Numbered from the stretch's first letter, positions 877-60,745 are shown. The stretch: DNA of 64,000 bases from Parcubacteria group bacterium (GCA_041661275.1 JBAZUU010000001.1:229057-293056); one strand, 5' to 3'. Numbers and translations are program-made. The notes: generated from the letters alone by a model not told the origin.

Positions 877-1147
877 TTTTTTCTCCTCTATTTAGCAATG
901 GTAATTTAATAAACCCTCTATTCTCAACGAACTGTGTTACGAGTTCTGTCTTTTCGGCTTCTCACCGTAACAGCCTAGTATACCATTTTTTTGACCATTA
1001 GTCCATAGTTAATGACAATAGGCAAGTATAACCAAGAAGGACATAGTCTATATTTGGCTTATATATTGCATTATCTAGCGATATATGCTACAATAATAGT
1101 GTCGTCATATTTGATGACAGCAATGTATAAATTGCAAAAAACCACCC

Positions 1148-1175
1148 GTAGAGACGCATTGCAATGCGTCTCTAC
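1148..1175. repeat. perfect 28 bp palindrome GTAGAGACGCATTGCAATGCGTCTCTAC upstream of the TrmB-like gene
   Basis: Read directly from the sequence. It shares the stem GTAGAGACG/CGTCTCTAC with the hairpin at 1935-1963. Confidence 0.6.
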
Positions 1176-1194
1176 GTCGCGGGAAACATAATAT

Positions 1195-1980: not shown

Positions 1981-4221
1981 ATGTCTAAAATCCTAGAAAA
2001 ACTAAATCCTTCCCAGCGCGAGGCGGTGGAGACGATTGATGGGCCGGTGCTTATCATTGCCGGAGCGGGTTCAGGGAAAACGCGGGCGCTCACTCATCGG
2101 GTGGCGTATTTGATTTGTGACAAAAATGTCAGTCCAAGGCGAATTTTGGCGGTGACATTCACAAACAAAGCTGCTCAAGAGATGAAGGAACGGATTGCAG
2201 AATTATTAGGTACTGATGACAACGATGGGAGTTCGACTCCCATTATGGGAGTCGAACTCCCAAGGAAAGAGATGCCGTTGGTGGGCACTTTTCATTCAAT
2301 CTGTGTGAGAATTTTGCGGCGGGAAATTGAGAAAGTGGGATATAAAAAATCATTTTCAATTCTCGATGCGCAGGATCAATTGGCACTTATGAAAAGGACG
2401 ATGAAGGAAATGCAAATTGATACCGATCAATTTAAACCACAAGCCATTTTGGGAGCAATTTCCAAAGCTAAAAACGAATTGATAGATGAAGCGGTTTTTG
2501 AAGAAGGCATCGGCGGATATTGGGAAGACGCAGTGTCGAAAGTTTATAAAACATATCAAAAAAAACTAAAAGACCAAAACGCTTTGGATTTTGACGATCT
2601 CATTATGCAAACAGTCAAAATTTTCAAGACATACCCAGAAATTTTGGCCAAATATCAGGAATTTTGGCGGTACATCATGGTGGATGAATATCAGGATACT
2701 AATCACGCGCAATATACTTTGGTAAAGCTGTTGTCTCAAAAGTATAAAAACATATGGGTTTGCGGTGATGACTGGCAAGGAATTTATATGTTTAGAGGCG
2801 CAGACATTCAAAACATACTCGACTTTGAAAAAGACTATTCAGACGCCAAAGTGATAAAACTAGAACAAAATTATCGTTCTACACAAAACATTCTGGACGC
2901 GGCTTACGGTGTTATTTCTAAAAACATTAATCGAAAAGATAAAAAAATATGGACCGACCAAGCGGGCGGGCATCTCATTACTTCATATGAAGCGGAAGAT
3001 GAAAGGGATGAGTCTGGTTTTATCGCCGAAGAAATCCGGAGAATAAGAAAAAAAGAAAACTATTCATTTTCCGATTTTGTGATTTTATATAGAACCAATG
3101 CTCAATCACGAACCATTGAAGAAGCGATGCTCAAAAATTCCCTGCCCTATCGAATTATTGGGGGCTTAAAATTCTATCAAAGAAAAGAAATAAAAGACGT
3201 CATTGCCTACCTTCGGCTTATTGAAAATTTTTATGACGAAGTTTCTTTGGAGCGCGTTATAAATGTTCCCAAAAAAGATATCGGCGAGATAACCTTGAAT
3301 AAATGGATAAAATTAGCCAGAGAAAATAATGTTAATCCGATAGGGTTTGGAGCTGGTAATTTAAAGATAGAGCCCTCTCCTGTCGCGAAGACGCGACATC
3401 CTCTCCCAGAGGGAGAGGAGGAAAGTAATGTGTTTTTAATTCCTTCCTCTAAAAAAGATAAAATTGCCAAGTTTTGTGAGTTTATAAAGAGGATGAATGA
3501 TGTAAAAAATAATATTCCACTGACTGATTTTATCCAAAAAGTCTTCATTGAATCCGGCTATGAAAAATTTTTGCTCGATGGAACGGAAGAAGGTGAAATG
3601 AGAAATGAGAACGTGCGCGAACTTTTGACGGTGGCTAAAAAATATGATGAATACGAAAGCGATGAAGGTTTGAAATTATTTTTGGAAGAAGTGGCACTTG
3701 TTTCTGATACGGACAATATCGATCAAAATAAAGACGCGGTGCATCTGATGACTTTGCACTCAGCCAAAGGACTGGAATTTAAGGTAGTTTTCATTGCCGG
3801 CCTCGAAGAGGGACTTCTGCCACATTCTCGAAGCATGATAGACGGTCGGGAGATGGAAGAGGAAAGAAGGTTGATGTACGTAGGAATAACTCGCGCCAAA
3901 GTCAAAGTATATTTATTATTTACCAGAGAAAGAAACATCTTTGGCTCAACGCAAGTCAATGCTCCGTCAAGATTTCTTGACGATATTCCGGAACACCTGC
4001 TCGAAGACTCAAATCCCAAATCTCAAATCCCAAATTCCAAACAAATCACAAATCCAAAATCACAAATTCAAAATTCTTTTCGAGATGGTGACAAAGTCAG
4101 TCATGAAATTTTTGGTGAGGGAAGAATAATCGCGACGCAAGGAGATATAATAACTGTGGCGTTTAAAAAAGCAGGATTGAAAAAACTAGCAGCGTCGATA
4201 GCGCCGTTAAGAAAAATTTAG
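1981..4221 (+). CDS. uvrD: UvrD/PcrA/Rep-family ATP-dependent DNA helicase
   Basis: Walker A (AGAGSGKTRALTHR) and the helicase motifs (VDEYQDTN, YRST, LMTLHSAKGLEF, VGITRAK) are present. The ORF also contains three repeat-derived in-frame insertions (see findings). Confidence 0.9.
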   Translation: MSKILEKLNPSQREAVETIDGPVLIIAGAGSGKTRALTHRVAYLICDKNVSPRRILAVTFTNKAAQEMKERIAELLGTDDNDGSSTPIMGVELPRKEMPLVGTFHSICVRILRREIEKVGYKKSFSILDAQDQLALMKRTMKEMQIDTDQFKPQAILGAISKAKNELIDEAVFEEGIGGYWEDAVSKVYKTYQKKLKDQNALDFDDLIMQTVKIFKTYPEILAKYQEFWRYIMVDEYQDTNHAQYTLVKLLSQKYKNIWVCGDDWQGIYMFRGADIQNILDFEKDYSDAKVIKLEQNYRSTQNILDAAYGVISKNINRKDKKIWTDQAGGHLITSYEAEDERDESGFIAEEIRRIRKKENYSFSDFVILYRTNAQSRTIEEAMLKNSLPYRIIGGLKFYQRKEIKDVIAYLRLIENFYDEVSLERVINVPKKDIGEITLNKWIKLARENNVNPIGFGAGNLKIEPSPVAKTRHPLPEGEEESNVFLIPSSKKDKIAKFCEFIKRMNDVKNNIPLTDFIQKVFIESGYEKFLLDGTEEGEMRNENVRELLTVAKKYDEYESDEGLKLFLEEVALVSDTDNIDQNKDAVHLMTLHSAKGLEFKVVFIAGLEEGLLPHSRSMIDGREMEEERRLMYVGITRAKVKVYLLFTRERNIFGSTQVNAPSRFLDDIPEHLLEDSNPKSQIPNSKQITNPKSQIQNSFRDGDKVSHEIFGEGRIIATQGDIITVAFKKAGLKKLAASIAPLRKI
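3372..3422 (+). repeat. CCCTCTCC/GGGAGAGGAGGA structured repeat, copy 1, in frame inside uvrD
   Basis: CCCTCTCCTGTC-GCGAAGACGC-GACATCCTCTCCCAGAGGGAGAGGAGGA. It encodes ...EPSPVAKTRHPLPEGEEE... within the helicase. Confidence 0.8.
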
Positions 4222-4343
4222 AATTTGAAATTTGAAATGAATTTTAAATGATTAAATTTAAAATTAAGACATTCAGAAATTTAAAATTGATTAAAAATTA
4301 AAAATTCTAAATTAAAAATTGAATAAGATAGTCTTAATAAAAC

Positions 4344-15881: not shown

Positions 15882-16098
15882 ATTTCAACGAACTGTTTAA
15901 AAAATCCCAAAGAAAAATTTCTCCTTGAGCCTCCTTAGCCAATTTTTAATCTATCTTAAACCTACGGCAAAATCCCCCATCCGTCAACAAAAATCCATCC
16001 AAAATACTCTCGACAACGCCTGTTTATTATGATAATATGACATAGTATTGTATCTTTTTTATACAAAATACTATATACTAAATACCAAATACTATTCT

Positions 16099-17106: not shown

Positions 17107-17262
17107 GAATTGGAATTTCTAATTTTCAATTTCTAATTTCTAAACAATTTCTAATTTCTAAACAATTTCTAATTTTTCAATGACTAAATTTCCAAATTGA
17201 AGAATTAAAACATTGGAAATTGTTTGAAAATTGAAAATTATAAATTGAAAATTAGTTTTCGT
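17107..17262. repeat. AT-rich tandem and inverted repeats (AATTTCTAATTTCTAAACA units; TTGAAAATTGAAAATT)
   Basis: Read directly. They are related to the low-complexity repeats at 4008-4075, 4222-4330 and 49838-49968. Confidence 0.6.
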
Positions 17263-22417: not shown

Positions 22418-22467
22418 TCCTCCTCTCCCTTTGGGAGAGGATGCCGAGTCTTCGAGGCAGGAGAGGG
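22418..22467 (-). repeat. CCCTCTCC/GGGAGAGGAGGA structured repeat, copy 2 (reverse orientation, degenerate inner hairpin)
   Basis: On the plus strand it reads TCCTCCTCTCCCTTTGGGAGAGGATGCC...GCAGGAGAGGG. Confidence 0.7.
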
Positions 22468-22498
22468 CTCTTAATTAAAATCGTTAATCTAACGAAGA

Positions 22499-22554
22499 GC
22501 CCTCTCTGTCACGATAAGAATCGCGACATCTCTCCCAAAGGGAGAGAGGGAGGA
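22499..22554 (+). repeat. CCCTCTCC structured repeat, copy 3, ending 6 nt before the TrmB-paralog ATG
   Basis: GCCCTCTCTGTC-ACGATAAGAATCGC-GACATCTCTCCCAAAGGGAGAGAGGGAGGA. The GGAGG serves as the Shine-Dalgarno sequence. Confidence 0.8.
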
Positions 22555-22559
22555 ATTTT

Positions 22560-23306
22560 ATGGACACGAAACTTACCCTCGAACAATTTGGCCTGCATGG
22601 CAGAAAGGCAGATGTGTATCTGGCGGCTTTGGAATTGGGTGGAGCCAGTGTCATTGATATTTCCCGAAAAGCCAATACTAAAAGAACAACGGTATATGAC
22701 ATACTGCTCGATCTTAAAAATGACGGACTAATATCCGAAACAATGAAAGGCGCGAAGAGACTTTTTATCGGTGAAGATCCGGAAAAGATAAAAAAAGATC
22801 TGGAAAAAAAGGAAGCTTTGTTTTCGGAAATCCTTCCCCAGTTGAAATCCATATACAACGTCAAAGGAATGAAACCGAAGATAAAATTCTATGAAGGGAA
22901 AGAAGGACTCATCGAAGCTTATGATGACGCGCTAAAATATTCCGGAGAAGTTTTGGCGTTTGGATCGGAAGATGTATTAAATGTCTTGGGCCAGGATTGG
23001 GCTGAGCAATATATAAAAAGAAGAGTGAAAAAAAATATCAGGATTCGCGCTATCCTGCCAGAAACAAAACAACTAACGGAAAATATCGTGGCGAGAGATC
23101 AGGAACATTTGCGCGCGTGTAAATTAATCAAAAAAGAAAAATATCCTTTTTCAGTGGAAGTGGATATTTATGGGCATCAAAAAGTAGCGCTCATTTCCTG
23201 CAAAGAACAAATGGCAGTGATAATAGAAAGCGCGGAGATAAATAATACGATGAAATGGATTTTTGAAATGTGTTGGGACAATTTACCGGAGATAAAGATA
23301 AAATAA
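22560..23306 (+). CDS. TrmB-family transcriptional regulator (second paralog)
   Basis: ADVYLAALELGGASVIDISRKANTKRTTVYDILLDLKNDGL has the same architecture as the ORF at 1195-1920. Confidence 0.7.
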   Translation: MDTKLTLEQFGLHGRKADVYLAALELGGASVIDISRKANTKRTTVYDILLDLKNDGLISETMKGAKRLFIGEDPEKIKKDLEKKEALFSEILPQLKSIYNVKGMKPKIKFYEGKEGLIEAYDDALKYSGEVLAFGSEDVLNVLGQDWAEQYIKRRVKKNIRIRAILPETKQLTENIVARDQEHLRACKLIKKEKYPFSVEVDIYGHQKVALISCKEQMAVIIESAEINNTMKWIFEMCWDNLPEIKIK

Positions 23307-24227: not shown

Positions 24228-25802
24228 TTAAGAATCTTTATAAAGTTTCATCCCGGCAATAAATCCCAAAATAATCCACAACATCAGACTCCCCTGCTGG
24301 ATATCCCAGAAATAGTGGTCAAAGAGCATTATGAAGATGAAACCCAGGAGAATGCCTTTGAAATAGCGAAGAGAGATATCTATTGACAAATAGGTATTAT
24401 CGTTGCTTAATATAGGTTTAGCAGTAAATACCTTGTATAACCAGTATATAAATAGCCCAAGGCCTATAATCCCCAATTCACTCCAAATCAAAAGGAAGAC
24501 ATTATGAACCGGTTGGAACTGCCAGACTTCTAGTGGAACAAGGGCGTACCTTTGCATGTTCCACACAAATTGCCCTATTCCCACTCCCAGGACGGGATTG
24601 GCCAGAATTGTTCCACGTGAAACATTTAGGTAGGTCAGGCGCTCCTGAAAAGACTGCTCTAAATTTCGGTCCAAATCCTGGTTGGCCAAAAGGCCAAGGG
24701 ATATAATTATCAATATTGAGAGTATAGCAATGCGTAATCGAGAATTGTTCCACCCCGTAACGACTTCAGATGTTCCACGTGGAACATATATGTATAGCAA
24801 AGCTACGAATAATCCCAAAATGGCAGATTTAGAGAACGACAAAATTAGAGCGAAAACCTGTAAGGCTAAAACGGCGTATAGGATTACTTGGAGTAATCTA
24901 ACATATCCGACTAGGATTGTTCCACCCCGAAGGAATTCAAATTGTTCCACGCCCGCCTCGCGTCGACGAGTCTCCGCGAGTCGAGGCGGGTGGAACAATT
25001 TAAGATAAAGGAGGGTCAAGATGATTGATAGTAGTAAATATCCTCCCAGGATATTGGGATGAGGGAAGAGTCCATAGGCTCGGATATAACGTTCCCCGCC
25101 CGCCTCGCCGAAGACGGCAAGTCGAGGCAGGTGGAACACTATTTTGGCCACTCCGGGGATGTTTGGGGCTATCATACTTTCGCCCAAAACTGACAAGCCA
25201 ATTGAGCGCTGGATCAAAACCTGTATTATTCCTATAGCGGATTGGATAAAACCGACCAGTATGATAATAAGTGAGAAGATGTTCCACGTGGAACAATTTA
25301 GTGTTGTTGATGTCTTGTTGGATGTAGAATGTTCCACGTGGAACATTCGTGGTACGAAGCGGAATATTATAAACAGATATAAAAGATAAAACTCCAATAA
25401 CTTGGCAGATCTAAAAAAGGCAATGGTATGGTTGTCCGACCATAAAATTGACAAAAATGACCAAATGACCAAAAGGAGCGGAAGGGACAAATAAAGAGAT
25501 TTTAAAAATCGTCTTGACGTGGGGGATAACTTGTGTTTTAACCAAGTTATCCACAGTCTATACATTGACGAATAATCTTTTGTGTTGTATAATATAGTAA
25601 ACAACCATAAAACTATGGTTACCCCTAGTAAGATATCGGATATATAAACATATATCCCAGCGTACTCATTGAATGTTCCTTGAAATGGGAAGTATAATAT
25701 TACTTTTCTTAACGTTAAGGAAAAACTAAATAAAAACAAAAAGAAAAGCCAAATATCCGGTTGTATTTTTATGTTTTCCCAAATTTTTCTTATTTTTTCC
25801 AT
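24228..25802 (-). CDS. O-antigen ligase family (Wzy_C) polytopic membrane protein carrying multiple in-frame palindromic-repeat insertions
   Basis: The hallmark ILSFSKSAILGLFVALL segment and about 10 TM helices are present. The ORF stays open across roughly 600 bp of nested palindromes. Confidence 0.65.
   Translation of the reverse strand: MEKIRKIWENIKIQPDIWLFFLFLFSFSLTLRKVILYFPFQGTFNEYAGIYVYISDILLGVTIVLWLFTILYNTKDYSSMYRLWITWLKHKLSPTSRRFLKSLYLSLPLLLVIWSFLSILWSDNHTIAFFRSAKLLEFYLLYLFIIFRFVPRMFHVEHSTSNKTSTTLNCSTWNIFSLIIILVGFIQSAIGIIQVLIQRSIGLSVLGESMIAPNIPGVAKIVFHLPRLAVFGEAGGERYIRAYGLFPHPNILGGYLLLSIILTLLYLKLFHPPRLAETRRREAGVEQFEFLRGGTILVGYVRLLQVILYAVLALQVFALILSFSKSAILGLFVALLYIYVPRGTSEVVTGWNNSRLRIAILSILIIISLGLLANQDLDRNLEQSFQERLTYLNVSRGTILANPVLGVGIGQFVWNMQRYALVPLEVWQFQPVHNVFLLIWSELGIIGLGLFIYWLYKVFTAKPILSNDNTYLSIDISLRYFKGILLGFIFIMLFDHYFWDIQQGSLMLWIILGFIAGMKLYKDS
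24745..25347. repeat. nested MITE/RPE-like palindromic elements (TTGTTCCAC ... GTGGAACAA; core TGTTCCACGTGGAACA; GC-rich inner hairpins CGCCCGCCTCG...CGAGGCGGG)
   Basis: Copies at 24746-24786, 24916-24999, 25090-25139, 25279-25298 and 25328-25347, read directly. All lie inside the 24228-25802 ORF. Confidence 0.75.
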
Positions 25803-32888: not shown

Positions 32889-32942
32889 GCCCTCTCTGTC
32901 ACGATAAGAATCGTGACATCTCTCCCGGAGGGAGAGAAGGAT
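32889..32942 (+). repeat. CCCTCTCC structured repeat, copy 4, upstream of cca
   Basis: GCCCTCTCTGTC-ACGATAAGAATCGT-GACATCTCTCCCGGAGGGAGAGAAGGATA. A TATAAT box lies just upstream at about 32870. Confidence 0.8.
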
Positions 32943-32956
32943 AATGAAGAAGATTT

Positions 32957-34525
32957 ATGATTGATAAAATCCCACAATATGTAATTGGAATTATCCAAAA
33001 ACTTGAAACTGCCGGTTTTGAGGGTTTTGTGGTGGGCGGGTGCGTGCGGGATATACTTTTGGATAAAGAGCCAAAGGATTGGGATGTGGCGACGAACGCC
33101 AAGCCGGAGGAAATAATGAAAATATTTACGGACAGTGTTTATGAGAATGAATTTGGAACAGTTGGAATAAAAATTAAGGCCGATCCGAATCTACGAATGA
33201 AATCCGAATCTACGAATGAGTCAGGAGTAACCATTGATGTTGTGGAAATTACCACTTATAGAATTGAATCCAAGTATTCTGATAAGCGGCATCCGGATAG
33301 TGTAAAATTTGCGAAGACTCTGGAAGAAGATTTGAGTCGGAGAGATTTTACGGTTAATGCGATGGCGTTGCGTTTGAATTTTTCTAAGGTTCGACCTTTC
33401 CCTTCCTCGAGCAAAGCTCTCGGAATTCCTCAAGGTCAAACCTTGAAAAATTTCGAATATGAAATAATTGATCCGTTTATTGGACAAAATGATCTGAAAA
33501 ATAAAATCATTCGGGCTGTTGGAAAAGCGAATGATAGGTTCAACGAAGATGCGCTGCGCATGATGCGAGCGATTCGTTTTGCAGTGCAGTTAGATTTTAA
33601 GATTGAGAAAAAGACATTTCTAGCTATCAAAAAGAATGCGAAAAACTTAAAGTTCATTTCCCAAGAAAGGATAAAAGACGAGTTTGAAAAGATAATTTTG
33701 TCGCCAAAGCCGGCGGAAGGGATAAAACTTCTTTATGAGTCCGGATTACTTTTTCAATTCATTCCTGAAATGGAGGAATCAGTCGGATTTGAACAGGGTT
33801 TTCATCATTATCACGGGCCATATCGCATGGTTTTTGATCATATGGTGGCGTCGCTCGAACATTGTCCATCAGAAAAACTCGAAGTACGATTAGCTTGTCT
33901 ATTTCATGATATTGGAAAACCAAGAACGGCTGGAGGAAAGGGGATAGAAACTACGTTTTATAACCACCAATACGCCGGAGCAAGAATGACGCGCGAAATC
34001 CTGCGACGTTTGCGATTTTCACGTGAAACAATTGAAAAGACAGTTATGCTGGTGCAAAACCATATGTTTTTCTATGATGTTGATCAAGTGGGGGAAGCAG
34101 GAGTGAGGCGAGTAGTGCGTCGGGTAGGACTGGAAAATATCAACGACCTCATCGACGTGCGGATTGGAGATAGGCTTGGGTCGGGAGTGGCGAAGGCGGT
34201 GCCATATAAACTGCGTCACTTCAAATATATGGTGGAAAAAGTATCGCATGATCCGATTTCGGTGAAACAATTGAAAATAAACGGCAATGATTTAATGAAT
34301 GAGTTGAAACTTGCTCCCGGACCGAAAATTGGGGCGATTTTGGACGTGCTGCTAGCAGAGGTTATTGATAACCCGGCGTTGAATGATAAAAAACAACTGT
34401 TAAAAAGGGCTAAGGATTTGGAAATCAGGGATATTGGGGAAATTAGGGAAATGGCCAAAAGGAAAATAGAAGAGGAAAAACAGGTGGAAGATAAAAAAAT
34501 CAAAGGAAAGTACTGGGTTAAATAG
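32957..34525 (+). CDS. cca: CCA-adding tRNA nucleotidyltransferase / poly(A)-polymerase family with HD domain
   Basis: GGCVRDILL...DWD head domain and HD motif LACLFHDIGKP. It contains a tandem 16/19 nt duplication (33184-33218) that encodes an extra loop. Confidence 0.8.
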   Translation: MIDKIPQYVIGIIQKLETAGFEGFVVGGCVRDILLDKEPKDWDVATNAKPEEIMKIFTDSVYENEFGTVGIKIKADPNLRMKSESTNESGVTIDVVEITTYRIESKYSDKRHPDSVKFAKTLEEDLSRRDFTVNAMALRLNFSKVRPFPSSSKALGIPQGQTLKNFEYEIIDPFIGQNDLKNKIIRAVGKANDRFNEDALRMMRAIRFAVQLDFKIEKKTFLAIKKNAKNLKFISQERIKDEFEKIILSPKPAEGIKLLYESGLLFQFIPEMEESVGFEQGFHHYHGPYRMVFDHMVASLEHCPSEKLEVRLACLFHDIGKPRTAGGKGIETTFYNHQYAGARMTREILRRLRFSRETIEKTVMLVQNHMFFYDVDQVGEAGVRRVVRRVGLENINDLIDVRIGDRLGSGVAKAVPYKLRHFKYMVEKVSHDPISVKQLKINGNDLMNELKLAPGPKIGAILDVLLAEVIDNPALNDKKQLLKRAKDLEIRDIGEIREMAKRKIEEEKQVEDKKIKGKYWVK

Positions 34526-34545: not shown

Positions 34546-34614
34546 GCCCTCTCCTGTCAGCCAGAATTTTAAGAAAAATTCAGACTGACATCCTCTCCCA
34601 AAGGGAGAGGAGGA
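34546..34614 (+). repeat. CCCTCTCC structured repeat, copy 5 (long inner hairpin), upstream of the ORF at 34634
   Basis: GCCCTCTCCTGTC-AGCCAGAATTTTAAGAAAAATTCAGACT-GACATCCTCTCCCAAAGGGAGAGGAGGA, with TATAAT immediately upstream. Confidence 0.8.
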
Positions 34615-35806: not shown

Positions 35807-37477
35807 ATGAAATCAGACATTCAAATCGCGCAGGAAGCAAAAATGAAACCGATAAAGGAAATAGCAAAAAAAGCAGGGATAGGGGAAAAAGATCTGGAAT
35901 TTTATGGTGATTATAAAGCCAAATTGAAACCAGAACTTTGGGATAAGATCAAAAAAAGAAAAGATGGAAAGTTGATATTGGTTACAGCTATCAATCCGAC
36001 TCCGGCGGGAGAAGGAAAGACCACCACTTCTATAGGGCTTGCGCAAGCGATGAACGCTATGGGGAAAAGAACGATGCTGGCGCTTCGCGAACCATCCCTT
36101 GGCCCATGCATGGGAATAAAGGGTGGAGCGGCGGGTGGCGGATATTCGCAAGTAATGCCGATGGATGAGATAAATCTGCATTTTACTGGTGACATTCACG
36201 CGGTGACGACGGCCAATAATCTATTGTCCGCGATGATTGATAATCATATCTATCACGGAAATATCCTGGGAATTGATCCGGAAAAAGTGATTTGGAAAAG
36301 ATGTATGGATTTGAACGACAGGGCACTGCGAAAAGTGACGGTGGATTTGAGCAAAAAAAATAAAAAATTAATCCGTGATGACAATTTTAATATCTCCGTA
36401 GCATCAGAAATAATGGCCATTCTTTGTCTTTCAGAGAATATCATTGATCTCAAAAAAAGAATTGACCGGATAATCGTAGCGTATAATTTTCGAGGATTTC
36501 CAATATACGCCAAAGATTTGAAAGCGACAGGCGCCATAGCCGTACTTCTAAAAGATGCTCTGAAACCTAACTTGGTACAAACTCTTGAGCATACGCCAGC
36601 ATTAATCCACGGCGGGCCGTTTGCCAACATTGCTCATGGTTGTAATTCCATCCTTGCTACCCGCTATGGCTTGAAACTGGGGGATTATCTCATAACGGAA
36701 GCGGGATTCGGAGCAGACCTTGGGGCGGAAAAATTTTTTGACATAAAATGCCGGATGGCGAAATTAAAACCGGATGCTGTGGTCGTCGTAGCAACGATCA
36801 GATCTTTGAAGTACAACGGGGGAACTAATCTAGCGGACGTAAAGACGCAAAATCTTGCGTCTCTACAAAGGGGCGCGGCCAATTTGGGAAAGCATATTGA
36901 AAATATCAAAAAATTTGGCGTGCCAGCGATAGTAGCGGTCAATGTTTTTCCGGATGATACGAAAGAGGAAATAGAATTGGTGAAAAATATTTGCCAAAAG
37001 CTAGGTGCGGAAATGGCGGTGTCGCGAGTTTGGGCGGAGGGCGGAGAAGGCGGAAAGGAACTGGCTCAAACCCTACTCAAAACTTTAAAAAATAAAAAAT
37101 CCCATTTCAAACCTGTTTATGACACAAAGAAAAGTATTAAAGAAAAAATAAATATCATTGCCCGGGAAATTTATGGAGCGCGCGATGTGAAATTTTCCGC
37201 GCGGGCGATAGAGAATATAAAAAAGATAGAAAAAAATAAACTGGATAAAGTTCCAGTTTGCATTGCCAAGACACAATATTCTTTGACGGATGATCCCAAA
37301 ATTTTGGGTCGTCCAAAAGATTTTACAATTTCTGTTTCCGAAGTAAGAATCAGTAATGGCGCGGGATTTGTGGTGGCGCTGGCTGGAGACATAATGACTA
37401 TGCCAGGATTGCCCAAAGTTCCGGCGGCAGAAAAGATTGATGTTGATGGCAAAGGTAGGATTTCGGGATTGTTCTAG
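35807..37477 (+). CDS. fhs: formate--tetrahydrofolate ligase
   Basis: [17 protein letters not shown] and colinearity with FTHFS throughout. Confidence 0.95.
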
Positions 37478-40528: not shown

Positions 40529-40577
40529 CCCTCTCCTGTCCCGAAACGGGACATCCTCTCCCGGAGGGAGAGGAGGA
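40529..40577 (+). repeat. CCCTCTCC structured repeat, copy 6, 21 nt upstream of tRNA-Leu(CAG)
   Basis: CCCTCTCCTGTC-CCGAAACGG-GACATCCTCTCCCGGAGGGAGAGGAGGA, preceded by a TAGAAT box. Confidence 0.8.
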
Positions 40578-42775: not shown

Positions 42776-42825
42776 CCCTCTCCTGTCCCGCAGACGGGAC
42801 ATCCTCTCCCAGAGGGAGAGGAGGA
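42776..42825 (+). repeat. CCCTCTCC structured repeat, copy 7, 21 nt upstream of tRNA-Phe
   Basis: CCCTCTCCTGTC-CCGCAGACGG-GACATCCTCTCCCAGAGGGAGAGGAGGA, preceded by a TATATA box. Confidence 0.8.
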
Positions 42826-42846: not shown

Positions 42847-43152
42847 GCCAGGTTAGCTCAGCGGTAGAGCGAAGGACTGAATTTCGGTCCGTCCGGCAGT
42901 AATGCCGGAATGAAAATTGGGTGAATTCGAGGAAACCTAAGTTGCCGATGAGGCAAAATGGCAATCTCGAGCCAAGTCTTGATGGGCATAGTTTTCAAGA
43001 AAGGTGTAGAGACTAGCGAGTGAGTCCCAACAATAATCTCGCATTAGCGCCCAATATCCTGATGAAGGATAATGAAATAGTCCAATCCTTGGGGAAACTC
43101 AAGAAGGAAAAGGAAAATCCTTGCGTGCCCAGTTCGACTCTGGGACCTGGCA
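42847..43152 (+). tRNA. tRNA-Phe(GAA) split by a group I intron in the anticodon loop
   Basis: Exon 1 is GCCAGGT-TA-GCTCAGCGGTAGAGC-G-AAGGA-CT (42847-42878). Exon 2 is GAAAA-TCCTT-GCGTG-CCCAG-TTCGACT-CTGGG-ACCTGGC-A (43113-43152). Spliced loop is CTGAAAA. Confidence 0.75.
42879..43112 (+). ncRNA. group I intron (234 nt), no ORF
   Basis: The internal guide GGTCC pairs with exon 1 GGACU through a U:G at the splice site, and the intron ends in G. Its core resembles the cyanobacterial tRNA-Leu intron as I recall it (GGAAACCTAA; CTCGAGCCAAGTC; GGTGTAGAGACTAGCG; TAGTCCAATCC). Confidence 0.75.
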
Positions 43153-43209
43153 CTTACAAAGTTAAAAGTTCAAAATTAAAAGTTAAAAGTTTGGCTAACT
43201 TTTAACTAT

Positions 43210-46864: not shown

Positions 46865-46917
46865 TCCCTCTCTCCCTCTGGGAGAGATGTCACGATTCTT
46901 ATCGTGACAGAGAGGGT
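46865..46917 (-). repeat. CCCTCTCC structured repeat, copy 8, oriented toward and just upstream of udg
   Basis: The reverse complement reads ACCCTCTCTGTC-ACGATAAGAATCGT-GACATCTCTCCCAGAGGGAGAGAGGGA, with a TATATA box upstream on the minus strand. Confidence 0.8.
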
Positions 46918-46967
46918 ACTATATAAAACTGAATAAAATATATAATTTTGTGAATTTAATTTAGAGT

Positions 46968-47018
46968 CCTCTCCTATCCCGCCAAGGCGGGACATCCTCT
47001 CCCAAAGGGAGAGGAGGA
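46968..47018 (+). repeat. CCCTCTCC structured repeat, copy 9 (variant TCCTCTCCTATC), with no gene downstream on its strand
   Basis: TCCTCTCCTATC-CCGCCAAGGCGG-GACATCCTCTCCCAAAGGGAGAGGAGGA. Confidence 0.75.
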
Positions 47019-47675: not shown

Positions 47676-48506
47676 TCAGGATGACGACTTTCTTAGTTTT
47701 TTCAAAATTTCAATATCTTCCCTTACCTTATCATGTTCTGTTTCCAAAATCATATCAATATCATTCTTTTTGGCAAAAGCGACGATATTTTTGAAGGCAT
47801 CAAGGCCGATTTTTCCCTCGCCGATGTGGGTGTGGCGGTCGCGGTTGGAATTGAATTCTGTTTGGCTGTCGTTGGTGTGGAATAATTTAATTTTATTCAA
47901 TCCTATTTCTTTATCGATTCGCCTGATAGTTTTTTCAAAATCATGCCAGTCGTAACCCGATGCAAAACTATGCTGGGTATCGAGACAAATTCCGGCGATG
48001 GCTGGACTATTTACTCCTTTGATTATTTCCGCCAGTTCTTTCAAATCATCGCCGATGATCATGCCTGTTCCGGCGCTGTTTTCCAAAAGCAATTTTGTTT
48101 CTCCCAAGTAATCTTTCAGACATTCTTTCAACATTTCAATTACTTTTTTGGTGGCTTCTTTTTTGCCTAAGTCTTTGGCACTGCCTAGATGAGTCATCAC
48201 ATATTTCGCGCCGATTAGACTTCCACGTTCCAGTTCGTCGCGGACAACTTTCACTGAACCATAGCGGATGCGGTTATTGGCAGAAGCGAAATTGATGTAA
48301 TATGGCGTATGAACGTAAGTATTTAGTATTTGATATTTAGTATTTTGTAGCTTAAAAGACTCGATAATTTCAGATGTTAATTCTGACGCCCTGCCTCCCT
48401 GAGGAGCCCGGGTGAAAATTTGCGTCACCTCGCAACCCAAATCCGCCGCGTTTTTAGGCGCATTCTGTATTCCGCCGGCAATTGAGACGTGACAGCCGAT
48501 ATTCAT
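47676..48506 (-). CDS. nfo: endonuclease IV (AP endonuclease family 2)
   Basis: TIM-barrel Nfo motifs (HVSIAGG...; HTPYYINFAS; THLG; ENSAGTG). Confidence 0.9.
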   Translation of the reverse strand: MNIGCHVSIAGGIQNAPKNAADLGCEVTQIFTRAPQGGRASELTSEIIESFKLQNTKYQILNTYVHTPYYINFASANNRIRYGSVKVVRDELERGSLIGAKYVMTHLGSAKDLGKKEATKKVIEMLKECLKDYLGETKLLLENSAGTGMIIGDDLKELAEIIKGVNSPAIAGICLDTQHSFASGYDWHDFEKTIRRIDKEIGLNKIKLFHTNDSQTEFNSNRDRHTHIGEGKIGLDAFKNIVAFAKKNDIDMILETEHDKVREDIEILKKLRKSSS

Positions 48507-49837: not shown

Positions 49838-49968
49838 AAAAATCCAAAATCCAAAATCTCAAATTCCAAATAAATCACAATGACCAAAATCCAAAGTTAT
49901 AAACCGTTTCGGATTTCGAGCCTTTATATTTTGAATTTATTTGTGATTTGTAATTTTGAATTTGTAAT
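49838..49968. repeat. AT-rich imperfect palindromic repeat (AAAATCCAAAATCTCAAATTCCAAATAAATCACAA ... TTGTGATTTGTAATTTTGAATTTG)
   Basis: Read directly. It matches the in-frame uvrD segment at 4008-4075. Confidence 0.6.
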
Positions 49969-51744
49969 TTACAAAGTCTTCTTCTTCACTTCTTCCCTAT
50001 AGCAAACAATAGTGTCTCCTTCTTTTATCTTCGTCTCACCCAAAAAAGTTATTCCGCATTCATTGTCCCGCTCACACTCCGGAACATTAATTTTATTTTG
50101 TTGAAGGTTGTCTAATTTTCCTTGTCCGATAATGTTGTCATCTCTCATAACTTCAAGAAGACAACCGTTAGCTAGTCTTCCTGTGGTCACTTTTCCTCCG
50201 ACGATCATATCTTTCTTTCCGGTTTTGAAAAGTGCCAGAACTTTCATCTTGCCCAGGTCATTGCGAATAATTTCCGGTGGCAGCATATCAATCAATCTAT
50301 TTTTTATATCTTCGATAAGTTCATAAATAATTTTGTAACTTTTCACTTCCACATTGGAATTTTCAGCCATTCTTTTGGCGACTGGCGTGATTTCCACACT
50401 GAATCCATAAATAATAGCTTTGGCGCTGGCGGCTAGCCGCACATCTGATTCGGTTATATTACCGACACCAGTCGCGACATAATCAATAGCCACTTCATCT
50501 GATTTAATTTCCCCCAAAATCTGCTCGATAGCTTCGAGAGACCCTTGCACATCTGATTTTAGGATAACATTAAGCTTTTTCACGTTTTCGTCAGCGATGG
50601 TTTTCATCATTTTTTGCGCGGTGAAGGCGCCTTTTTCTTCTATTTGCTGGTTTCTGATGGCGTCATGCTTGGCTCGGGCAGATTTGGCGGAAATAACCTG
50701 GACTATATCATTAGTATTAGGAGCGCTATTGAGGCCAATGAGACTAACTGGGGTGGAGGGTAGAGCCTGAACAATTCTAATTCCTCTAAAATCCTCAAGG
50801 CGTCTTACGCGGCCATAAGTTTGGCCGGCAATAATGTCCTGCCCCTCTTTTAGTGTTCCAGTTTTAACAAGAACTGTGGCGACAGGTCCTTTTTGCGGGT
50901 CAAGATGAGATTCCAGTACCACGCCCAGGGCATCGCGAGTATAATCAGCCTTAAATTCTTCTACTTCATCGATCAGAAGTATATTTTCCAAAAGTTCGTC
51001 GATGCCGATATTTTGCTTGGCACTAATCTTGGAATATAGAACGTCACCGCCCCAGTCTTCCAGAAGAATCCCGTTTTCGCCTAATTCTTGTTTTACTCTT
51101 TGTATATTTACTCCCGGTTTATCGATCTTGTTTATTGCCACAACTGTCGGAATTTTTTTAGCGAGAAGATATTCGATAACTTCTTTCGTCTGCGGTCGCA
51201 CGCCGTCGTCTGCTGCCACCACAAGAACAGCAATGTCAGCCAGGCTCACGCCGCGTTCGCGCATAGCAGAGAAAGCTTCGTGGCCGGGAGTATCAACAAA
51301 AGTGATGAGTTGCCCCTTCTTTTTTACCTGATAAGCATTGATATGCTGGGTGATCCCTCCGGCTTCTTTGGCGACGACATTGGTTTTTCTGATGGTGTCG
51401 AGAAGGGTGGTTTTCCCATGGTCAACGTGGCCCAAAATTGTGACGATAGGCGGACGTTTTTTCAAATGTTCTCCTGATTCTTTTTCCTGTTTTAATATTT
51501 CGATCAATTTTTCCAGAGTCATCCCGGCCTCTTTTTCCGTTATTTCTTCAGAAACTTCAAAACCCAGGTCAGACGCAATAATAGAGGCTGTCTCGAAATC
51601 AATTCTCTCGTTTATCGTAGCCAGAATGCCATTTTTCATTAGTTCAGTGATAACAGCATTCAAGGGCAAGTTTAAAAGCTCACTGAATTTTTTGACAGTG
51701 ACAGACGCGGGCAATGAAACCTTTTTTGTTGCTATATCGGGCAT
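49969..51744 (-). CDS. infB: translation initiation factor IF-2 (short form)
   Basis: G domain (GHVDHGKTTLLD, DTPGH, NKID) and the C-terminal beta-barrels. Confidence 0.95.
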   Translation of the reverse strand: MPDIATKKVSLPASVTVKKFSELLNLPLNAVITELMKNGILATINERIDFETASIIASDLGFEVSEEITEKEAGMTLEKLIEILKQEKESGEHLKKRPPIVTILGHVDHGKTTLLDTIRKTNVVAKEAGGITQHINAYQVKKKGQLITFVDTPGHEAFSAMRERGVSLADIAVLVVAADDGVRPQTKEVIEYLLAKKIPTVVAINKIDKPGVNIQRVKQELGENGILLEDWGGDVLYSKISAKQNIGIDELLENILLIDEVEEFKADYTRDALGVVLESHLDPQKGPVATVLVKTGTLKEGQDIIAGQTYGRVRRLEDFRGIRIVQALPSTPVSLIGLNSAPNTNDIVQVISAKSARAKHDAIRNQQIEEKGAFTAQKMMKTIADENVKKLNVILKSDVQGSLEAIEQILGEIKSDEVAIDYVATGVGNITESDVRLAASAKAIIYGFSVEITPVAKRMAENSNVEVKSYKIIYELIEDIKNRLIDMLPPEIIRNDLGKMKVLALFKTGKKDMIVGGKVTTGRLANGCLLEVMRDDNIIGQGKLDNLQQNKINVPECERDNECGITFLGETKIKEGDTIVCYREEVKKKTL

Positions 51745-60586: not shown

Positions 60587-60745
60587 TAAGTAGCAGGTAT
60601 GGAGTTCGCGCAAGCGAACTTTCTTTGTTAAATAGACGCGATTCGAATCAGCGAATGCATTCGAATCTACGAATAAAAGAAGAGCGATTCGTAGATTTTG
60701 TAGATTCGTTTAACGTATTCGTAAATTCGAATCGGTATAAAAAAT

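What the first reader, a model, noticed from the sequence alone, without database searches (positions are those of the whole stretch)
2227..4075. uvrD/pcrA helicase ORF carries three different repeat-derived in-frame insertions
The helicase reading frame passes through three unrelated repeats.
- A 35 bp double palindrome, GGGAGTTCGACTCCC-ATTAT-GGGAGTCGAACTCCC (2227-2261), in which the second arm is the exact reverse complement of the first. It lies between helicase motifs I and Ia and encodes ...GSSTPIMGVELPRK....
- A CCCTCTCC-family element (3372-3422).
- An AT-rich CAAATCCCAAAT-type repeat (4008-4075) encoding NPKSQIPNSKQITNPKSQIQNS. The same DNA repeat recurs intergenically at 49838-49968.

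A housekeeping helicase tolerating three independent palindrome or repeat insertions without frame disruption is reminiscent of Rickettsia palindromic elements. It suggests in-frame repeat invasion is a general feature of this genome.
Basis: seen in the sequence. Interest (0 to 1): 0.7.

Follow-up and report, generated by a model that had tools for sequence, protein, structure and literature searches.

The report
Mobile palindromes inserted in-frame in helicase
In this tiny-genome (Moranbacteria, CPR) bacterium, two loops of the essential PcrA/UvrD helicase carry translated copies of short hairpin-forming repeats; one family recurs in-frame in many housekeeping genes of related bacteria and is linked to a RayT-like transposase gene.

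Summary
The sequence features are real. ORF 1981-4221 is an intact PcrA/UvrD helicase of a Candidatus Moranbacteria (CPR) genome.

- **Site 1 (2226-2262):** a perfect 35-nt double hairpin. It has no second copy in the window. It belongs to a repeat family dispersed in Moranbacteria genomes (50 copies collected). About half of the copies lie in-frame in unrelated conserved genes, almost always read as GSSTPIMGVELP or GGSTSIMEVEPP. All arm variation is compensatory. Copies flank, and sit in-frame inside, RayT-like Y1 transposase genes.
- **Site 2 (3359-3422):** one of nine CCCTCTCC two-hairpin elements in the window. The other eight are intergenic. The window is 66 nt longer here than the ortholog P0003 (80% identical).
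- **Site 3 (4010-4076):** not an insertion. It is the normal flexible linker, the same length as in Geobacillus PcrA, written as a decayed (CAAATCC)n heptanucleotide tract.

Sites 1 and 2 are disordered loops and indel hot spots, where near-identical orthologs carry different repeat families.

The Rickettsia-palindromic-element analogy is largely right for two of the three sites. The closest mechanistic analogue is a miniature REPIN/RAYT system. I found no paper in the searched library that treats REPIN/RAYT together with CPR bacteria.

The parts
1981..4221 (+). Intact PcrA/UvrD (SF1A) helicase ORF, 746 aa, of a Candidatus Moranbacteria genome
   Evidence: Pfam UvrD-helicase 1.5e-91, UvrD_C 5.2e-74 and PcrA_UvrD_tudor. 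E = 1.3e-199 to Geobacillus PcrA 1PJR over the full length. 100% identical to P0001 on a 299,612-bp contig. All helicase motifs are invariant across 36 orthologs.
2226..2262 (.). Family A element. It is a perfect palindrome made of two inverted 15-nt arms (each itself a 6-bp hairpin with a 3-nt loop) around ATTAT, flanked by T and A. It is read in-frame as GSSTPIMGVELP.
   Evidence: Sequence; 17-bp perfect stem; fold -33.6 kcal/mol, z = -8.6. Identical arms occur in 22 metagenome loci. Five further arm variants occur at two other PcrA orthologs (P0005, P0106) and in the 22 genome loci. All variable arm pairs change on both sides.
2209..2274 (+). Whole lineage-specific segment at site 1 (residues 77-98, GTDDNDGSSTPIMGVELPRKEM). 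It stands where orthologs P0003 and P0004 have only 6 residues. It is a loop of domain 1A between the motif-Ia helix and the GTFHS strand.
   Evidence: Protein alignment; DNA comparison, 48 nt longer than P0003; 16-residue gap in 1PJR; AlphaFold pLDDT < 50 for residues 78-95.
3359..3422 (+). Family B (CCCTCTCC) element: CCCTCTCC, hairpin A (GTCGCG-AAGA-CGCGAC), then hairpin B (TCCTCTCCC-AGA-GGGAGAGGA). It is read in-frame as (E)PSPVAKTRHPLPEGEE and lies in a loop of domain 2B. A weaker 3' similarity may extend to about 3446.
   Evidence: 86% identical over 64 nt to 22418-22481 on the minus strand. 9 copies in the window. The window is 66 nt (22 codons) longer than P0003 here. 21-residue gap in 1PJR. 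pLDDT < 50 for residues 463-484. Fold -36.3 kcal/mol, z = -4.3.
4010..4076 (+). Degenerate (CAAATCC)n heptanucleotide tract encoding NPKSQIPNSKQITNPKSQIQNS. This is the normal flexible linker between domain 2A and the C-terminal Tudor domain, not a net insertion.
   Evidence: TRF period 7, 8.7 copies. Same linker length in the window, P0003, P0004 and P0005, and an orthologous tract in P0004. Ungapped alignment to PcrA residues about 650-672. pLDDT < 50 for residues 650-696. No RNA structure, z = -2.0.
22419..22467 (-). Intergenic family B copy; the closest relative of the helicase copy
22500..22550 (+). Intergenic family B copy (B2 subtype). Its 3' GGAGGA lies 5 nt upstream of the ATG at 22560.
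32890..32940 (+). Intergenic family B copy (B2 subtype)
34547..34613 (+). Intergenic family B copy with a longer hairpin A
40529..40576 (+). Intergenic family B copy, 22 nt upstream of tRNA-Leu
42776..42824 (+). Intergenic family B copy, between tRNA-Val and an intron-containing tRNA
46866..46916 (-). Intergenic family B copy (B2 subtype)
46967..47017 (+). Intergenic family B copy
49839..49970 (.). Intergenic pair of inverted AT-rich heptamer arrays (AAAATCC... / ...ATTTGTA). It is the same kind of simple sequence as site 3, at only 75% identity.
33183..33219 (+). A second gene with an in-frame repeat. A 2 x 19-nt tandem (CGAATCTACGAATGA) encodes NLRMKSESTNE in the CCA-adding enzyme ORF 32957-34525. 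Related palindromic copies are intergenic at 60636-60735.
   Evidence: it is a gap in PDB 6IBP; Pfam PolyA_pol
33385..33445 (+). In-frame inverted repeat AAGGTTCGACCTT - 33 nt - AAGGTCAAACCTT, with family-A-like arms, in the same CCA-adding enzyme. It corresponds to an insertion of about 26 residues.
   Evidence: residues 140-167 are unaligned to 6IBP

Best explanation
The pcrA gene has three structurally permissive, disordered segments. These behave like pockets of intergenic DNA inside the gene.

**Two segments were colonised by unrelated short GC-rich palindromic repeats.**
- Family A sits at site 1. It is a 35-nt inverted doublet of a 15-nt hairpin unit, with the architecture of a REPIN (REP doublet forming a hairpin) in miniature.
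- Family B sits at site 2. It is a roughly 50-66-nt two-hairpin CCCTCTCC element that is abundant in this genome's intergenic spacers.

**Why the copies are tolerated.**
- They add 12 residues (family A element; 16 more than P0003 at the whole site) and about 22 residues (family B), so the downstream frame is kept.
- Almost all their reading frames lack stop codons.
- The frame actually used gives a Gly/Ser/Thr/Pro/Glu-rich flexible peptide.
- They sit in surface loops of domains 1A and 2B.

**Shown versus inferred.**
- Shown: family membership, insertion relative to orthologs, loop location, hot-spot turnover, and compensatory maintenance of the palindrome.
- Inferred: family A is moved as single-stranded hairpin DNA by a RayT-like Y1 (HUH) transposase. 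The genes for this enzyme are flanked by the lineage-specific version of the same double hairpin and also contain it in-frame.
- Inferred: the recurrence at the same loops results from repeated insertion and excision combined with purifying selection everywhere else.

**Site 3** is the ordinary 2A-Tudor linker. Its DNA has evolved in place as a heptanucleotide microsatellite of the type that fills this genome's intergenic spacers.
For: **Identity and intactness of the helicase:**

**Site 2**
- 9 copies in the window, with the other 8 intergenic.
- The window is +66 nt relative to P0003.
- The same family, in the same reading frame (PSPV..HPLP.GEEE), sits at site 1 rather than site 2 in orthologs P0014 and P0023, so these are independent events.
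- All six frames of the core are open.

**Site 1**
- A degenerate genome scan that did not require complementarity found 24 copies in 22 loci. They come from 9 MAGs; those with a taxonomic name are Moranbacteria/Parcubacteria. At least 11 copies are in one MAG, and 23 of 24 have perfectly complementary arms.
- 22 further loci carry the window's exact arms.
- The arms occur in six variants. All 6 variable pairs within the 15-bp arms change only by double substitutions, with 0 one-sided changes and 1 unpaired cell.
- In-frame hosts confirmed by Pfam or motifs: LeuRS, CysRS, PheT, RecG (2), ELP3-like (2), ComEC, TsaD, UvrC-like, LigA-like, a glycosyltransferase, PcrA (3) and Y1_Tnp (5).

**Hot spot and turnover**
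- Outside the three sites, P0001 is 91% identical to P0002 (a different repeat at site 1) and to P0003 (no insert).
- P0106 is 90-94% identical to four orthologs that carry four other repeat families at site 1.
- Site 1 ranges from 5 to 43 aa across 115 orthologs.
- RecG shows the same behaviour, with two different repeats after the identical ...LICH junction.

**Loop location:** gaps in 1PJR and pLDDT < 50 exactly at residues 78-95, 463-484 and 650-696.

**Transposase link**
- Y1_Tnp genes are flanked by and contain copies.
- Homologs, some named RayT by JGI, carry a lineage-specific perfect double hairpin at the same codon position. In two of the three further loci checked, an identical copy lies nearby.
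- REPINs are defined as inverted REP doublets that form hairpins, show compensatory changes, and are associated with RAYTs (PMC3116915; PMC5581495).

**Site 3:**
Against: - No second family A copy and no Y1_Tnp gene were found in the 64-kb window or in the 8 kb upstream. For this particular genome, family A membership therefore rests on identity to copies in other assemblies.
- The exact mobile unit and target are not defined. The window is 48 nt, not 36 nt, longer than P0003 at site 1, and no clean filled/empty pair was found.
- Only a T...A flank preference is seen. Longer palindromic flanks are at chance level overall.
- The Y1 proteins score far below NCBIfam's RAYT cut-off, 20-23 bits against 80.
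- Classical REP/REPINs are extragenic and lack an in-gene copy in the transposase.
- Transposition has not been observed.
- Whether the same-site copies in different lineages (PcrA, RecG, ELP3-like, Y1_Tnp) are re-insertions or old copies homogenised in concert is unresolved.
- No transcript or peptide data show that the inserts are translated.
Confidence: 0.8

Rival explanations
1. The site 1 hairpin is an old, vertically inherited part of the gene, kept by selection for a function of its own. Examples would be an mRNA structure that modulates translation or stability, or a protein-binding DNA site. Under this view, lineage-specific variants arise by compensatory evolution or by concerted homogenisation, not by new insertions.
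For: - The same codon position carries genome-specific variants in PcrA, RecG, ELP3-like and Y1_Tnp orthologs.
- P0001 and P0005 share similar flanks, D.N.|...|R(K/R)EM.
- The palindrome is perfect, and all arm variation is compensatory.
Against: - The nearest relatives of each carrier (90-94% identical outside the three sites) have no insert or a different repeat family at the site.
- The identical element occurs in many unrelated genes and in intergenic DNA, up to at least 11 copies in one MAG.
- No Rfam family matches it.
- A gene-specific regulatory role cannot explain the dispersed copies.
Confidence: 0.12
2. The inserted peptides are functional protein modules, such as interaction motifs, selected at the amino-acid level. 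The DNA palindromy would then be incidental.
For: - One reading frame dominates among in-gene copies: GSSTPIMGVELP or GGSTSIMEVEPP in about 20 of 23.
- Family B is read in the same frame at two different PcrA sites.
Against: - Variants differ by non-synonymous but base-pair-preserving changes: GSSTPIMGVELP, GGSASIMEAEPL and GGSTSIMEVEPP. No synonymous change that breaks the palindrome is seen.
- Other frames are also used: WEFDSHNGSRTP and VEARLPLWKPSFH.
- Many copies are intergenic.
- The segments are predicted to be disordered.
- The frame bias is explained more simply by tolerance of a hydrophilic peptide.
Confidence: 0.05
3. Site 3 is, an in-frame insertion of a mobile AT-rich repeat that also occurs at 49838-49968.
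For: - 75% identity over 72 nt to 49840-49911.
- Similar heptamer-type tracts encode KIQNSK-like peptides at site 2 of many orthologs and in the RecG hot spot.
- P0001 and P0004 share the tract although the closer relatives P0002 and P0003 do not.
Against: - There is no length gain. The linker is 44 aa (SRFL..KV) in the window, P0003, P0004 and P0005, and aligns without a gap to PcrA.
- The tract is a period-7 simple repeat, one of about ten such period-7 AT-rich tracts with different units in the window. Similarity between two such arrays is expected.
- It has no defined ends or structure.
Confidence: 0.12
4. The features are assembly artefacts, that is, repeat-induced chimeras or collapsed repeats in a metagenome assembly.
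For: The window comes from a single metagenome assembly (ENA ERZ27249449, contig k141_323660). Read support could not be examined.
Against: - All three segments keep the frame of a 746-aa ORF whose flanks are 91% identical to orthologs.
- Independent assemblies from other samples show the same families at the same or equivalent loops: P0005 (Logan), P0106 (UBA2206) and P0014 (ENA).
- The family A element is shorter than a sequencing read.
Confidence: 0.02

Closest known systems
Rickettsia palindromic elements (RPEs; Ogata et al. 2000, as summarised in PMC10969869)
   Same: - Dispersed palindromic repeats.
- Besides lying between genes, they are inserted in-frame in many unrelated housekeeping genes.
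- They are translated as a conserved peptide.
- They sit where the protein fold tolerates them.
- Roughly half of the copies are intragenic.
   Different: - RPEs are about 100-150 bp; family A here is 35-37 nt (12 codons) and family B about 50-66 nt.
- There is no sequence relationship to RPEs, and the phylum differs (Patescibacteria/CPR rather than Alphaproteobacteria).
- Several families compete for the same loops, with fast turnover.
- To my knowledge no transposase has been linked to RPEs. Family A is linked by position to a Y1 transposase gene.
REPIN/RAYT systems (Bertels & Rainey 2011, PMC3116915; Bertels et al. 2017, PMC5581495; TnpA-REP, PMC8266576)
   Same: - Two inverted copies of a short palindromic unit separated by a spacer.
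- They can fold either as one long hairpin or as two small ones.
- Compensatory changes preserve the hairpin.
- Variants are homogeneous within a genome and lineage-specific.
- Copies are physically associated with an IS200-like Y1 (HUH) transposase gene.
   Different: - REPINs are by definition extragenic and about 70-100 nt. Here the doublet is 35 nt and nearly half the copies are inside genes, in-frame.
- There is no 5' GTAG tetranucleotide.
- The transposase gene itself carries the cognate double hairpin in-frame just upstream of its HUH motif. I did not find this described.
- The proteins score below the NCBIfam RAYT cut-off.
MITEs that fuse in-frame with host ORFs (ERIC, BOX, cyanobacterial MITEs; review PMC10969869)
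   Same: Short non-autonomous repeats with inverted symmetry that occasionally create translational fusions.
   Different: - No target-site duplication or distinct terminal inverted repeats flanking an internal region were detected.
- The whole element is the palindrome.
- In-frame insertion is frequent rather than occasional.
Low-complexity, microsatellite-encoded inter-domain linkers
   Same: Site 3 is a flexible linker whose DNA is a decayed tandem repeat. Its length is conserved but its sequence is free to vary.
   Different: The repeat period is 7 nt, not a multiple of 3. The unit type is the same as that filling intergenic spacers of this genome.

Membership tests
UvrD/PcrA SF1A helicase | UvrD N- and C-terminal helicase domains with the conserved motifs, and full-length similarity to PcrA | tested here: met
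   Pfam PF00580 1.5e-91, PF13361 5.2e-74 and PF21196. 1PJR E = 1.3e-199 over residues 3-746. Motifs are invariant in 36 orthologs.
RPE-type in-frame palindromic repeat (functional class) | Member of a multi-copy dispersed repeat family | tested here: met
   Family B has 9 copies in 64 kb. Family A has 50 copies collected, at least 11 of them in MAG ELA328, but only one copy in this window.
RPE-type in-frame palindromic repeat (functional class) | Palindromic, hairpin-forming sequence | tested here: met
   (z = -8.6 and -4.3).
RPE-type in-frame palindromic repeat (functional class) | In-frame copies in several unrelated protein-coding genes, encoding a conserved peptide | tested here: met
   Family A is in-frame in at least 12 protein families. 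Family B is in-frame at two different PcrA loops in the same frame. No other host gene was found for family B.
RPE-type in-frame palindromic repeat (functional class) | Insertions lie at positions compatible with the fold (surface loops) | tested here: met
   Gaps against 1PJR lie between secondary-structure elements. pLDDT < 50 at residues 78-95 and 463-484 in the AlphaFold model, which is of moderate overall quality (mean pLDDT 69.5).
Rickettsia RPE families proper | Sequence relationship to RPE-1 to RPE-10, about 100-150 bp, in Rickettsiales | tested here: not met
   The elements are 35-66 nt and the host is Moranbacteria. No direct sequence comparison with RPEs was run. Size and taxon alone exclude membership.
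RPE-type in-frame palindromic repeat (functional class) | The insert peptide is present in the mature protein (neither spliced nor bypassed) | not testable with these tools
   No transcript or peptide data are available. Frame conservation and the absence of stops are consistent with translation.
REPIN/RAYT | Two REP units in inverted orientation forming a hairpin | tested here: met
   15-nt arms with a 5-nt spacer, each arm a small hairpin.
REPIN/RAYT | Compensatory changes that keep the hairpin across copies | tested here: met
   The 6 variable pairs within the 15-bp arms change only on both sides, and 90.4% of cells are paired against 32-52% when the partner is slid. Caveat: half of the sequences were retrieved with a pattern that fixed both arms.
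REPIN/RAYT | Associated Y1 (HUH) transposase gene of the RAYT type, with cognate repeats next to it | tested here: inconclusive
   - Pfam Y1_Tnp is above its cut-off.
- Copies lie immediately upstream of, downstream of and inside the gene in L037, L012, L017, L052 and L054.
- JGI names some homologs RayT.
- NCBIfam REP_Tyr_transpos gives only 20-23 bits against a cut-off of 80.
- No such gene is present in the window.
REPIN/RAYT | Extragenic location | tested here: not met
   About 20 of 45 non-redundant copies lie inside conserved protein-coding genes.
REPIN/RAYT | Conserved 5' GTAG tetranucleotide of classical REPs (from my knowledge of E. coli-type REPs) | tested here: not met
   Family A arms start with GGGAG or GGAGG. 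A different palindrome family in the window does start with GTAG (1147-1176 and 1934-1964).
REPIN/RAYT | Mobilisation by the transposase | not testable with these tools
   This needs biochemistry or population sequencing.
MITE | Terminal inverted repeats plus a target-site duplication | tested here: inconclusive
   The arms could count as terminal inverted repeats. No direct duplication is seen, only a T...A flank preference (U-A in 24 of 37 distinct rows) and chance-level pairing further out.
Microsatellite-type linker (site 3) | Tandem short-period repeat, with no net length change relative to orthologs | tested here: met
   Period 7, 8.7 copies. Equal linker length in four orthologs and an ungapped alignment to PcrA.

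The most novel reading that the evidence does not exclude
Family A is a minimal REPIN/RAYT-type system of CPR bacteria.
- It is a 12-codon double hairpin with almost no stop codon in any frame, so it can land in coding DNA without destroying genes.
- It repeatedly enters and leaves the same permissive loops of essential proteins.
- Its RayT-like transposase gene carries the cognate hairpin in-frame, as a master copy or an autoregulatory or recognition site. As a result the enzyme and its hairpin variant co-evolve lineage by lineage.

If so, CPR genomes contain an active single-strand transposition system that continuously rewrites protein surface loops.
Probability: 0.35. Interest if true: 0.78.

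Novelty: new variant of a known kind. Interest (0 to 1): 0.66.

Why it matters
Candidate Phyla Radiation bacteria have very small, gene-dense genomes, so dispersed repeats are not expected to sit inside their essential genes. The evidence here indicates the following:
- Several families of tiny palindromic repeats populate these genomes.
- Permissive loops of housekeeping proteins act as landing pads with fast turnover.
- One family has the hallmarks of a REPIN/RAYT system, except that it lives partly inside genes and inside its own transposase gene.

Practical consequences:
- It supplies a source of rapid loop evolution in proteins.
- It is a caveat for alignments, phylogenies and structure predictions of CPR proteins.
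- The peptide signatures (GGSTSIMEVEPP and similar) could serve as lineage markers.

It may also offer a compact, testable model for how RAYT-type enzymes recognise and move hairpin DNA. That mechanism is still unresolved for classical REPINs.

Tried and rejected
- **Other family A copies in the window:** none, apart from tRNA T-arm look-alikes.
- **FTHFS hairpin at 36843-36862 and its similarity to the GTAGAGACG palindromes:** this is conserved formate-tetrahydrofolate ligase coding sequence, not an insertion.
- **Rfam:** no family matches any of the three helicase features. The best hits have E = 0.12-0.42 and lie far below gathering scores.
- **Conserved non-coding RNA around intergenic family A copies with shared flanks:** only tRNAs were found.
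- **Extended palindromic flanks as an insertion signature:** striking in some copies (CGT...ACG, AAT...ATT), but at chance level over all copies. Only T...A stands out.
- **Exact size of the mobile unit:** PcrA and RecG orthologs gave no clean filled/empty pair, because the sites are occupied by other repeats.
- **Family B as a 5' leader providing a promoter and ribosome-binding site:** many copies have a -10-like box upstream, but only one copy (22500-22550) has ideal Shine-Dalgarno spacing to a start codon. Not pursued.
- **RAYT membership by NCBIfam:** best and only hit, but well below the cut-off.
- **Linking the window genome to a RayT-like gene carrying the same variant:** the gene occurs in other samples of the same ENA series, not demonstrably in this genome.
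- **Literature:** no paper in the searched library combines RAYT/REPIN, or in-frame palindromic insertion, with CPR, Patescibacteria or Parcubacteria.


Full report
**What is there.** The ORF at 1981-4221 (+) encodes a 746-aa protein.
- It has UvrD-helicase, UvrD_C and PcrA/UvrD Tudor domains.
- It aligns end to end with Geobacillus PcrA (1PJR, E = 1.3e-199).
- It is identical to a protein of a 'Parcubacteria group bacterium' MAG on a 299,612-bp contig. Its closest relatives that carry a taxonomic name are Candidatus Moranbacteria.
- The window is AT-rich, about 40% G+C.
- In an alignment of 36 orthologs all helicase motifs are invariant.

**Site 1.**
- The sequence at 2227-2261 is exactly as described. 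With the flanking T and A it is a perfect 17-bp stem. Its fold is -33.6 kcal/mol, z = -8.6.
- Each 15-nt arm is itself a 6-bp hairpin with a 3-nt loop, so the unit can fold as one long hairpin or as two short ones.
- It lies after motif Ia and before the GTFHS strand. There Geobacillus PcrA has 16 fewer residues and orthologs P0003 and P0004 have six residues instead of 22.
- The window has no second copy, so I tested repeat status elsewhere.
  - Orthologs P0005 and P0106 carry, at the same place, GGAGGCTCGGCCTCC-ATAAT-GGAGGCCGAGCCTCT and GGAGGTTCGACCTCC-ATTAT-GGAGGTCGAACCTCC.
  - I then scanned one genome per species with a pattern that left the six variable arm positions free. It returned 24 copies in 22 loci, and 23 of them have fully complementary arms. 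The loci come from 9 MAGs; those with a taxonomic name are Moranbacteria/Parcubacteria, and at least 11 copies are in a single MAG.
  - A metagenome scan with the window's exact arms and any spacer returned 22 more loci.
- Over 45 aligned copies, the six variable pairs within the arms change only by double substitutions.

**Where family A sits.**
- About 20 of 45 non-redundant copies are inside conserved genes: LeuRS, CysRS, PheT, RecG, ELP3-like radical-SAM, TsaD, ComEC, UvrC-like, LigA-like, a glycosyltransferase, PcrA and IS200-like Y1 transposases.
- In about 20 of 23 in-gene copies the frame gives GSSTPIMGVELP or GGSTSIMEVEPP. The other two frames are used rarely.
- Five of the six frame/orientation combinations have no stop codon.
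- Differences between variants are non-synonymous but preserve base pairing. The constraint therefore acts on the nucleic-acid hairpin, not on the peptide.

**Link to a transposase.**
- The Y1_Tnp genes in L037, L012 and L017 contain a copy in-frame just upstream of the HUH motif. Further copies lie within 10-16 nt of their start or stop codons.
- A search with one of these proteins found thousands of homologs, some named 'REP element-mobilizing transposase RayT' by JGI.
- At the same position, most of the matched homologs carry a peptide of palindromic type in many variants.
- DNA from three further lineages confirmed perfect but different double hairpins: GGGACTAAGTCCC-type and GGCTCTAAGAGCC-type. 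Identical copies were found 4 kb away or just after the stop codon.
- This matches the association and co-variation that define REPIN/RAYT systems (PMC3116915; PMC5581495). There are three differences:
  - the unit is 35 nt;
  - it is often intragenic;
  - the transposase gene hosts its own hairpin.
- NCBIfam's RAYT model is the only hit but is far below its cut-off. Membership is therefore unproven and mobilisation is inferred.

**Site 2.**
- The helicase copy (3359-3422) is 86% identical over 64 nt to an intergenic copy. It is one of nine in the window, and the other eight lie between genes or next to tRNAs.
- The window is 66 nt longer than P0003 here and 21 residues longer than Geobacillus PcrA, within domain 2B.
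- Orthologs P0014 and P0023 carry the same family, read in the same frame, at site 1 instead. That shows independent insertions.
- In 407 kb of other Moranbacteria DNA only that one further copy was found. Family B therefore expanded in particular lineages.

**Site 3.**
- The tract is a decayed (CAAATCC)n array with no predicted structure.
- The linker has the same length in the window, P0003, P0004 and P0005. It is orthologous at DNA level in P0004 and aligns without a gap to the PcrA linker.
- It is the normal flexible linker, not an insertion.
- Its resemblance to 49839-49970 is that of two heptamer arrays. About ten period-7 AT-rich arrays with different units occur in the window.

**Hot spots.**
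- Excluding the three sites, P0001 is 91% identical to P0002 and to P0003. Yet at site 1 they carry family A, a different repeat, and nothing, respectively.
- P0106 is 90-94% identical to four orthologs that carry four other repeat families at site 1.
- RecG has an equivalent hot spot, where two different repeats follow the identical ...LICH junction.
- The AlphaFold model has moderate overall quality (mean pLDDT 69.5). It has pLDDT < 50 at residues 78-95, 463-484 and 650-696, each flanked by better-predicted helices or strands.

**Generality in this window.**
- The CCA-adding enzyme ORF (32957-34525) has two repeat-like in-frame segments that are gaps in PDB 6IBP.
- A Wzy_C ORF (24228-25802) has four copies of GTTCCACGTGGAAC, read in different frames.

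**Alternatives.**
- An assembly artefact is very unlikely, given frame conservation and independent assemblies that show the same families at equivalent loops. Reads could not be checked.
- A gene-specific regulatory hairpin or a functional peptide module does not explain the dispersed copies or the pattern of substitutions.
- Whether same-site copies in different lineages reflect re-insertion or concerted homogenisation remains open.

**Novelty.**
- In-frame palindromic repeats are known from Rickettsia (PMC10969869), and REPIN/RAYT systems from Proteobacteria.
- I found no paper in the searched library that combines either topic with CPR bacteria.
- I rate this as a new variant of a known kind.

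Noticed in passing
L037 615-1265; L012 6539-6809; L017 2996-3577; L052 10192-10225 and 14687-14720; L053 10179-10213; L054 10183-10222 and 10715-10754: RayT-like Y1 (IS200-type) transposase genes of Moranbacteria carry a lineage-specific perfect double-hairpin palindrome in-frame just upstream of the HUH motif. In most of the loci checked (not L053), identical copies lie next to the gene or a few kb away. Peptide signatures suggest this holds for most of the matched homologs.
   Followed up: partly
window 24228-25802 (-), palindromes at 24610, 24772, 25281, 25331: A Wzy_C (O-antigen-ligase-like) membrane-protein ORF contains four copies of the 14-16-nt palindrome GTTCCACGTGGAAC (0.11 expected by chance). 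They are read in different frames (MFHVEH, NCSTWNI, VPRGTS, VSRGTI). The same type of palindrome appears to encode CSTLRATC-like peptides in the site 3 linker of other PcrA orthologs (DNA seen for P0002 only).
   Followed up: partly
window 32957-34525 (+): 33183-33219 and 33385-33445; intergenic 60636-60735: The CCA-adding enzyme carries two in-frame repeat-like inserts. One is a 2 x 19-nt tandem encoding NLRMKSESTNE. The other is an inverted repeat with family-A-like arms. Both are gaps against PDB 6IBP. The NLRM-type peptide also occupies PcrA site 1 in many orthologs.
   Followed up: partly
window 42847-43157 (+), intron 42869-43104: A group I intron (Rfam RF00028, 87 bits) interrupts the anticodon loop of a tRNA gene (anticodon GAA, by my reading of the sequence) that ARAGORN did not call. 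A family B element lies about 20 nt upstream.
   Followed up: no
window 1147-1176 and 1934-1964: Two perfect 13-14-bp GC-rich palindromes beginning CGTAGAGACG... form a third repeat family with a REP-like GTAG start. The second lies 17 nt upstream of the helicase start codon.
   Followed up: no
window family B copies, e.g. 42776-42824, 22500-22550, 3373-3432: - In family B the 5' CCCTCTCC is the mirror image of the CCTCTCCC arm of hairpin B. This is the arrangement needed for an intramolecular pyrimidine-purine-pyrimidine triplex.
- Many intergenic copies have a -10-like box about 8 nt upstream.
- The 3' GGAGGA is a well-spaced ribosome-binding site for the ATG at 22560.
- Inside the helicase the same GGAGGA is followed after 7 nt by an in-frame GTG at 3430.
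   Followed up: no
P0121-P0240 (RecG orthologs); L034 5638-5672; L026 2902-2936: RecG has a repeat-insertion hot spot between LLTNSY.. and ..VIGTH, ranging from 26 to 70 aa. Family A and an unrelated HPERSEGSRDSS-type repeat occupy exactly the same junction in different lineages.
   Followed up: partly
P0049, P0057, P0066, P0071, P0082: Some Moranbacteria PcrA orthologs are about 1100 aa and carry an intein (PF14890). The window's gene has none.
   Followed up: no
window 4214-4326, 16061-16094, 17114-17254, 43158-43191, 48318-48349, 49839-49970: Intergenic spacers are filled with AT-rich tandem arrays of period 7 with different units. They are often arranged as inverted pairs, for example 4215-4249 / 4279-4313 just after the helicase stop codon.
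   Followed up: no
L033 1168-1202 (contig FUWD013023327.1): One exact family A copy sits in a contig stretch of 56% G+C, unlike all other hosts (34-44%). Its origin is unexplained.
   Followed up: no
L051 7278-9940 (= window about 1-1920 and upstream): Compared with orthologous loci (rpsO directly upstream of pcrA in L002-L006), this genome has extra genes between rpsO and pcrA: a HicB-like antitoxin, hypothetical proteins and a TrmB-family regulator.
   Followed up: no
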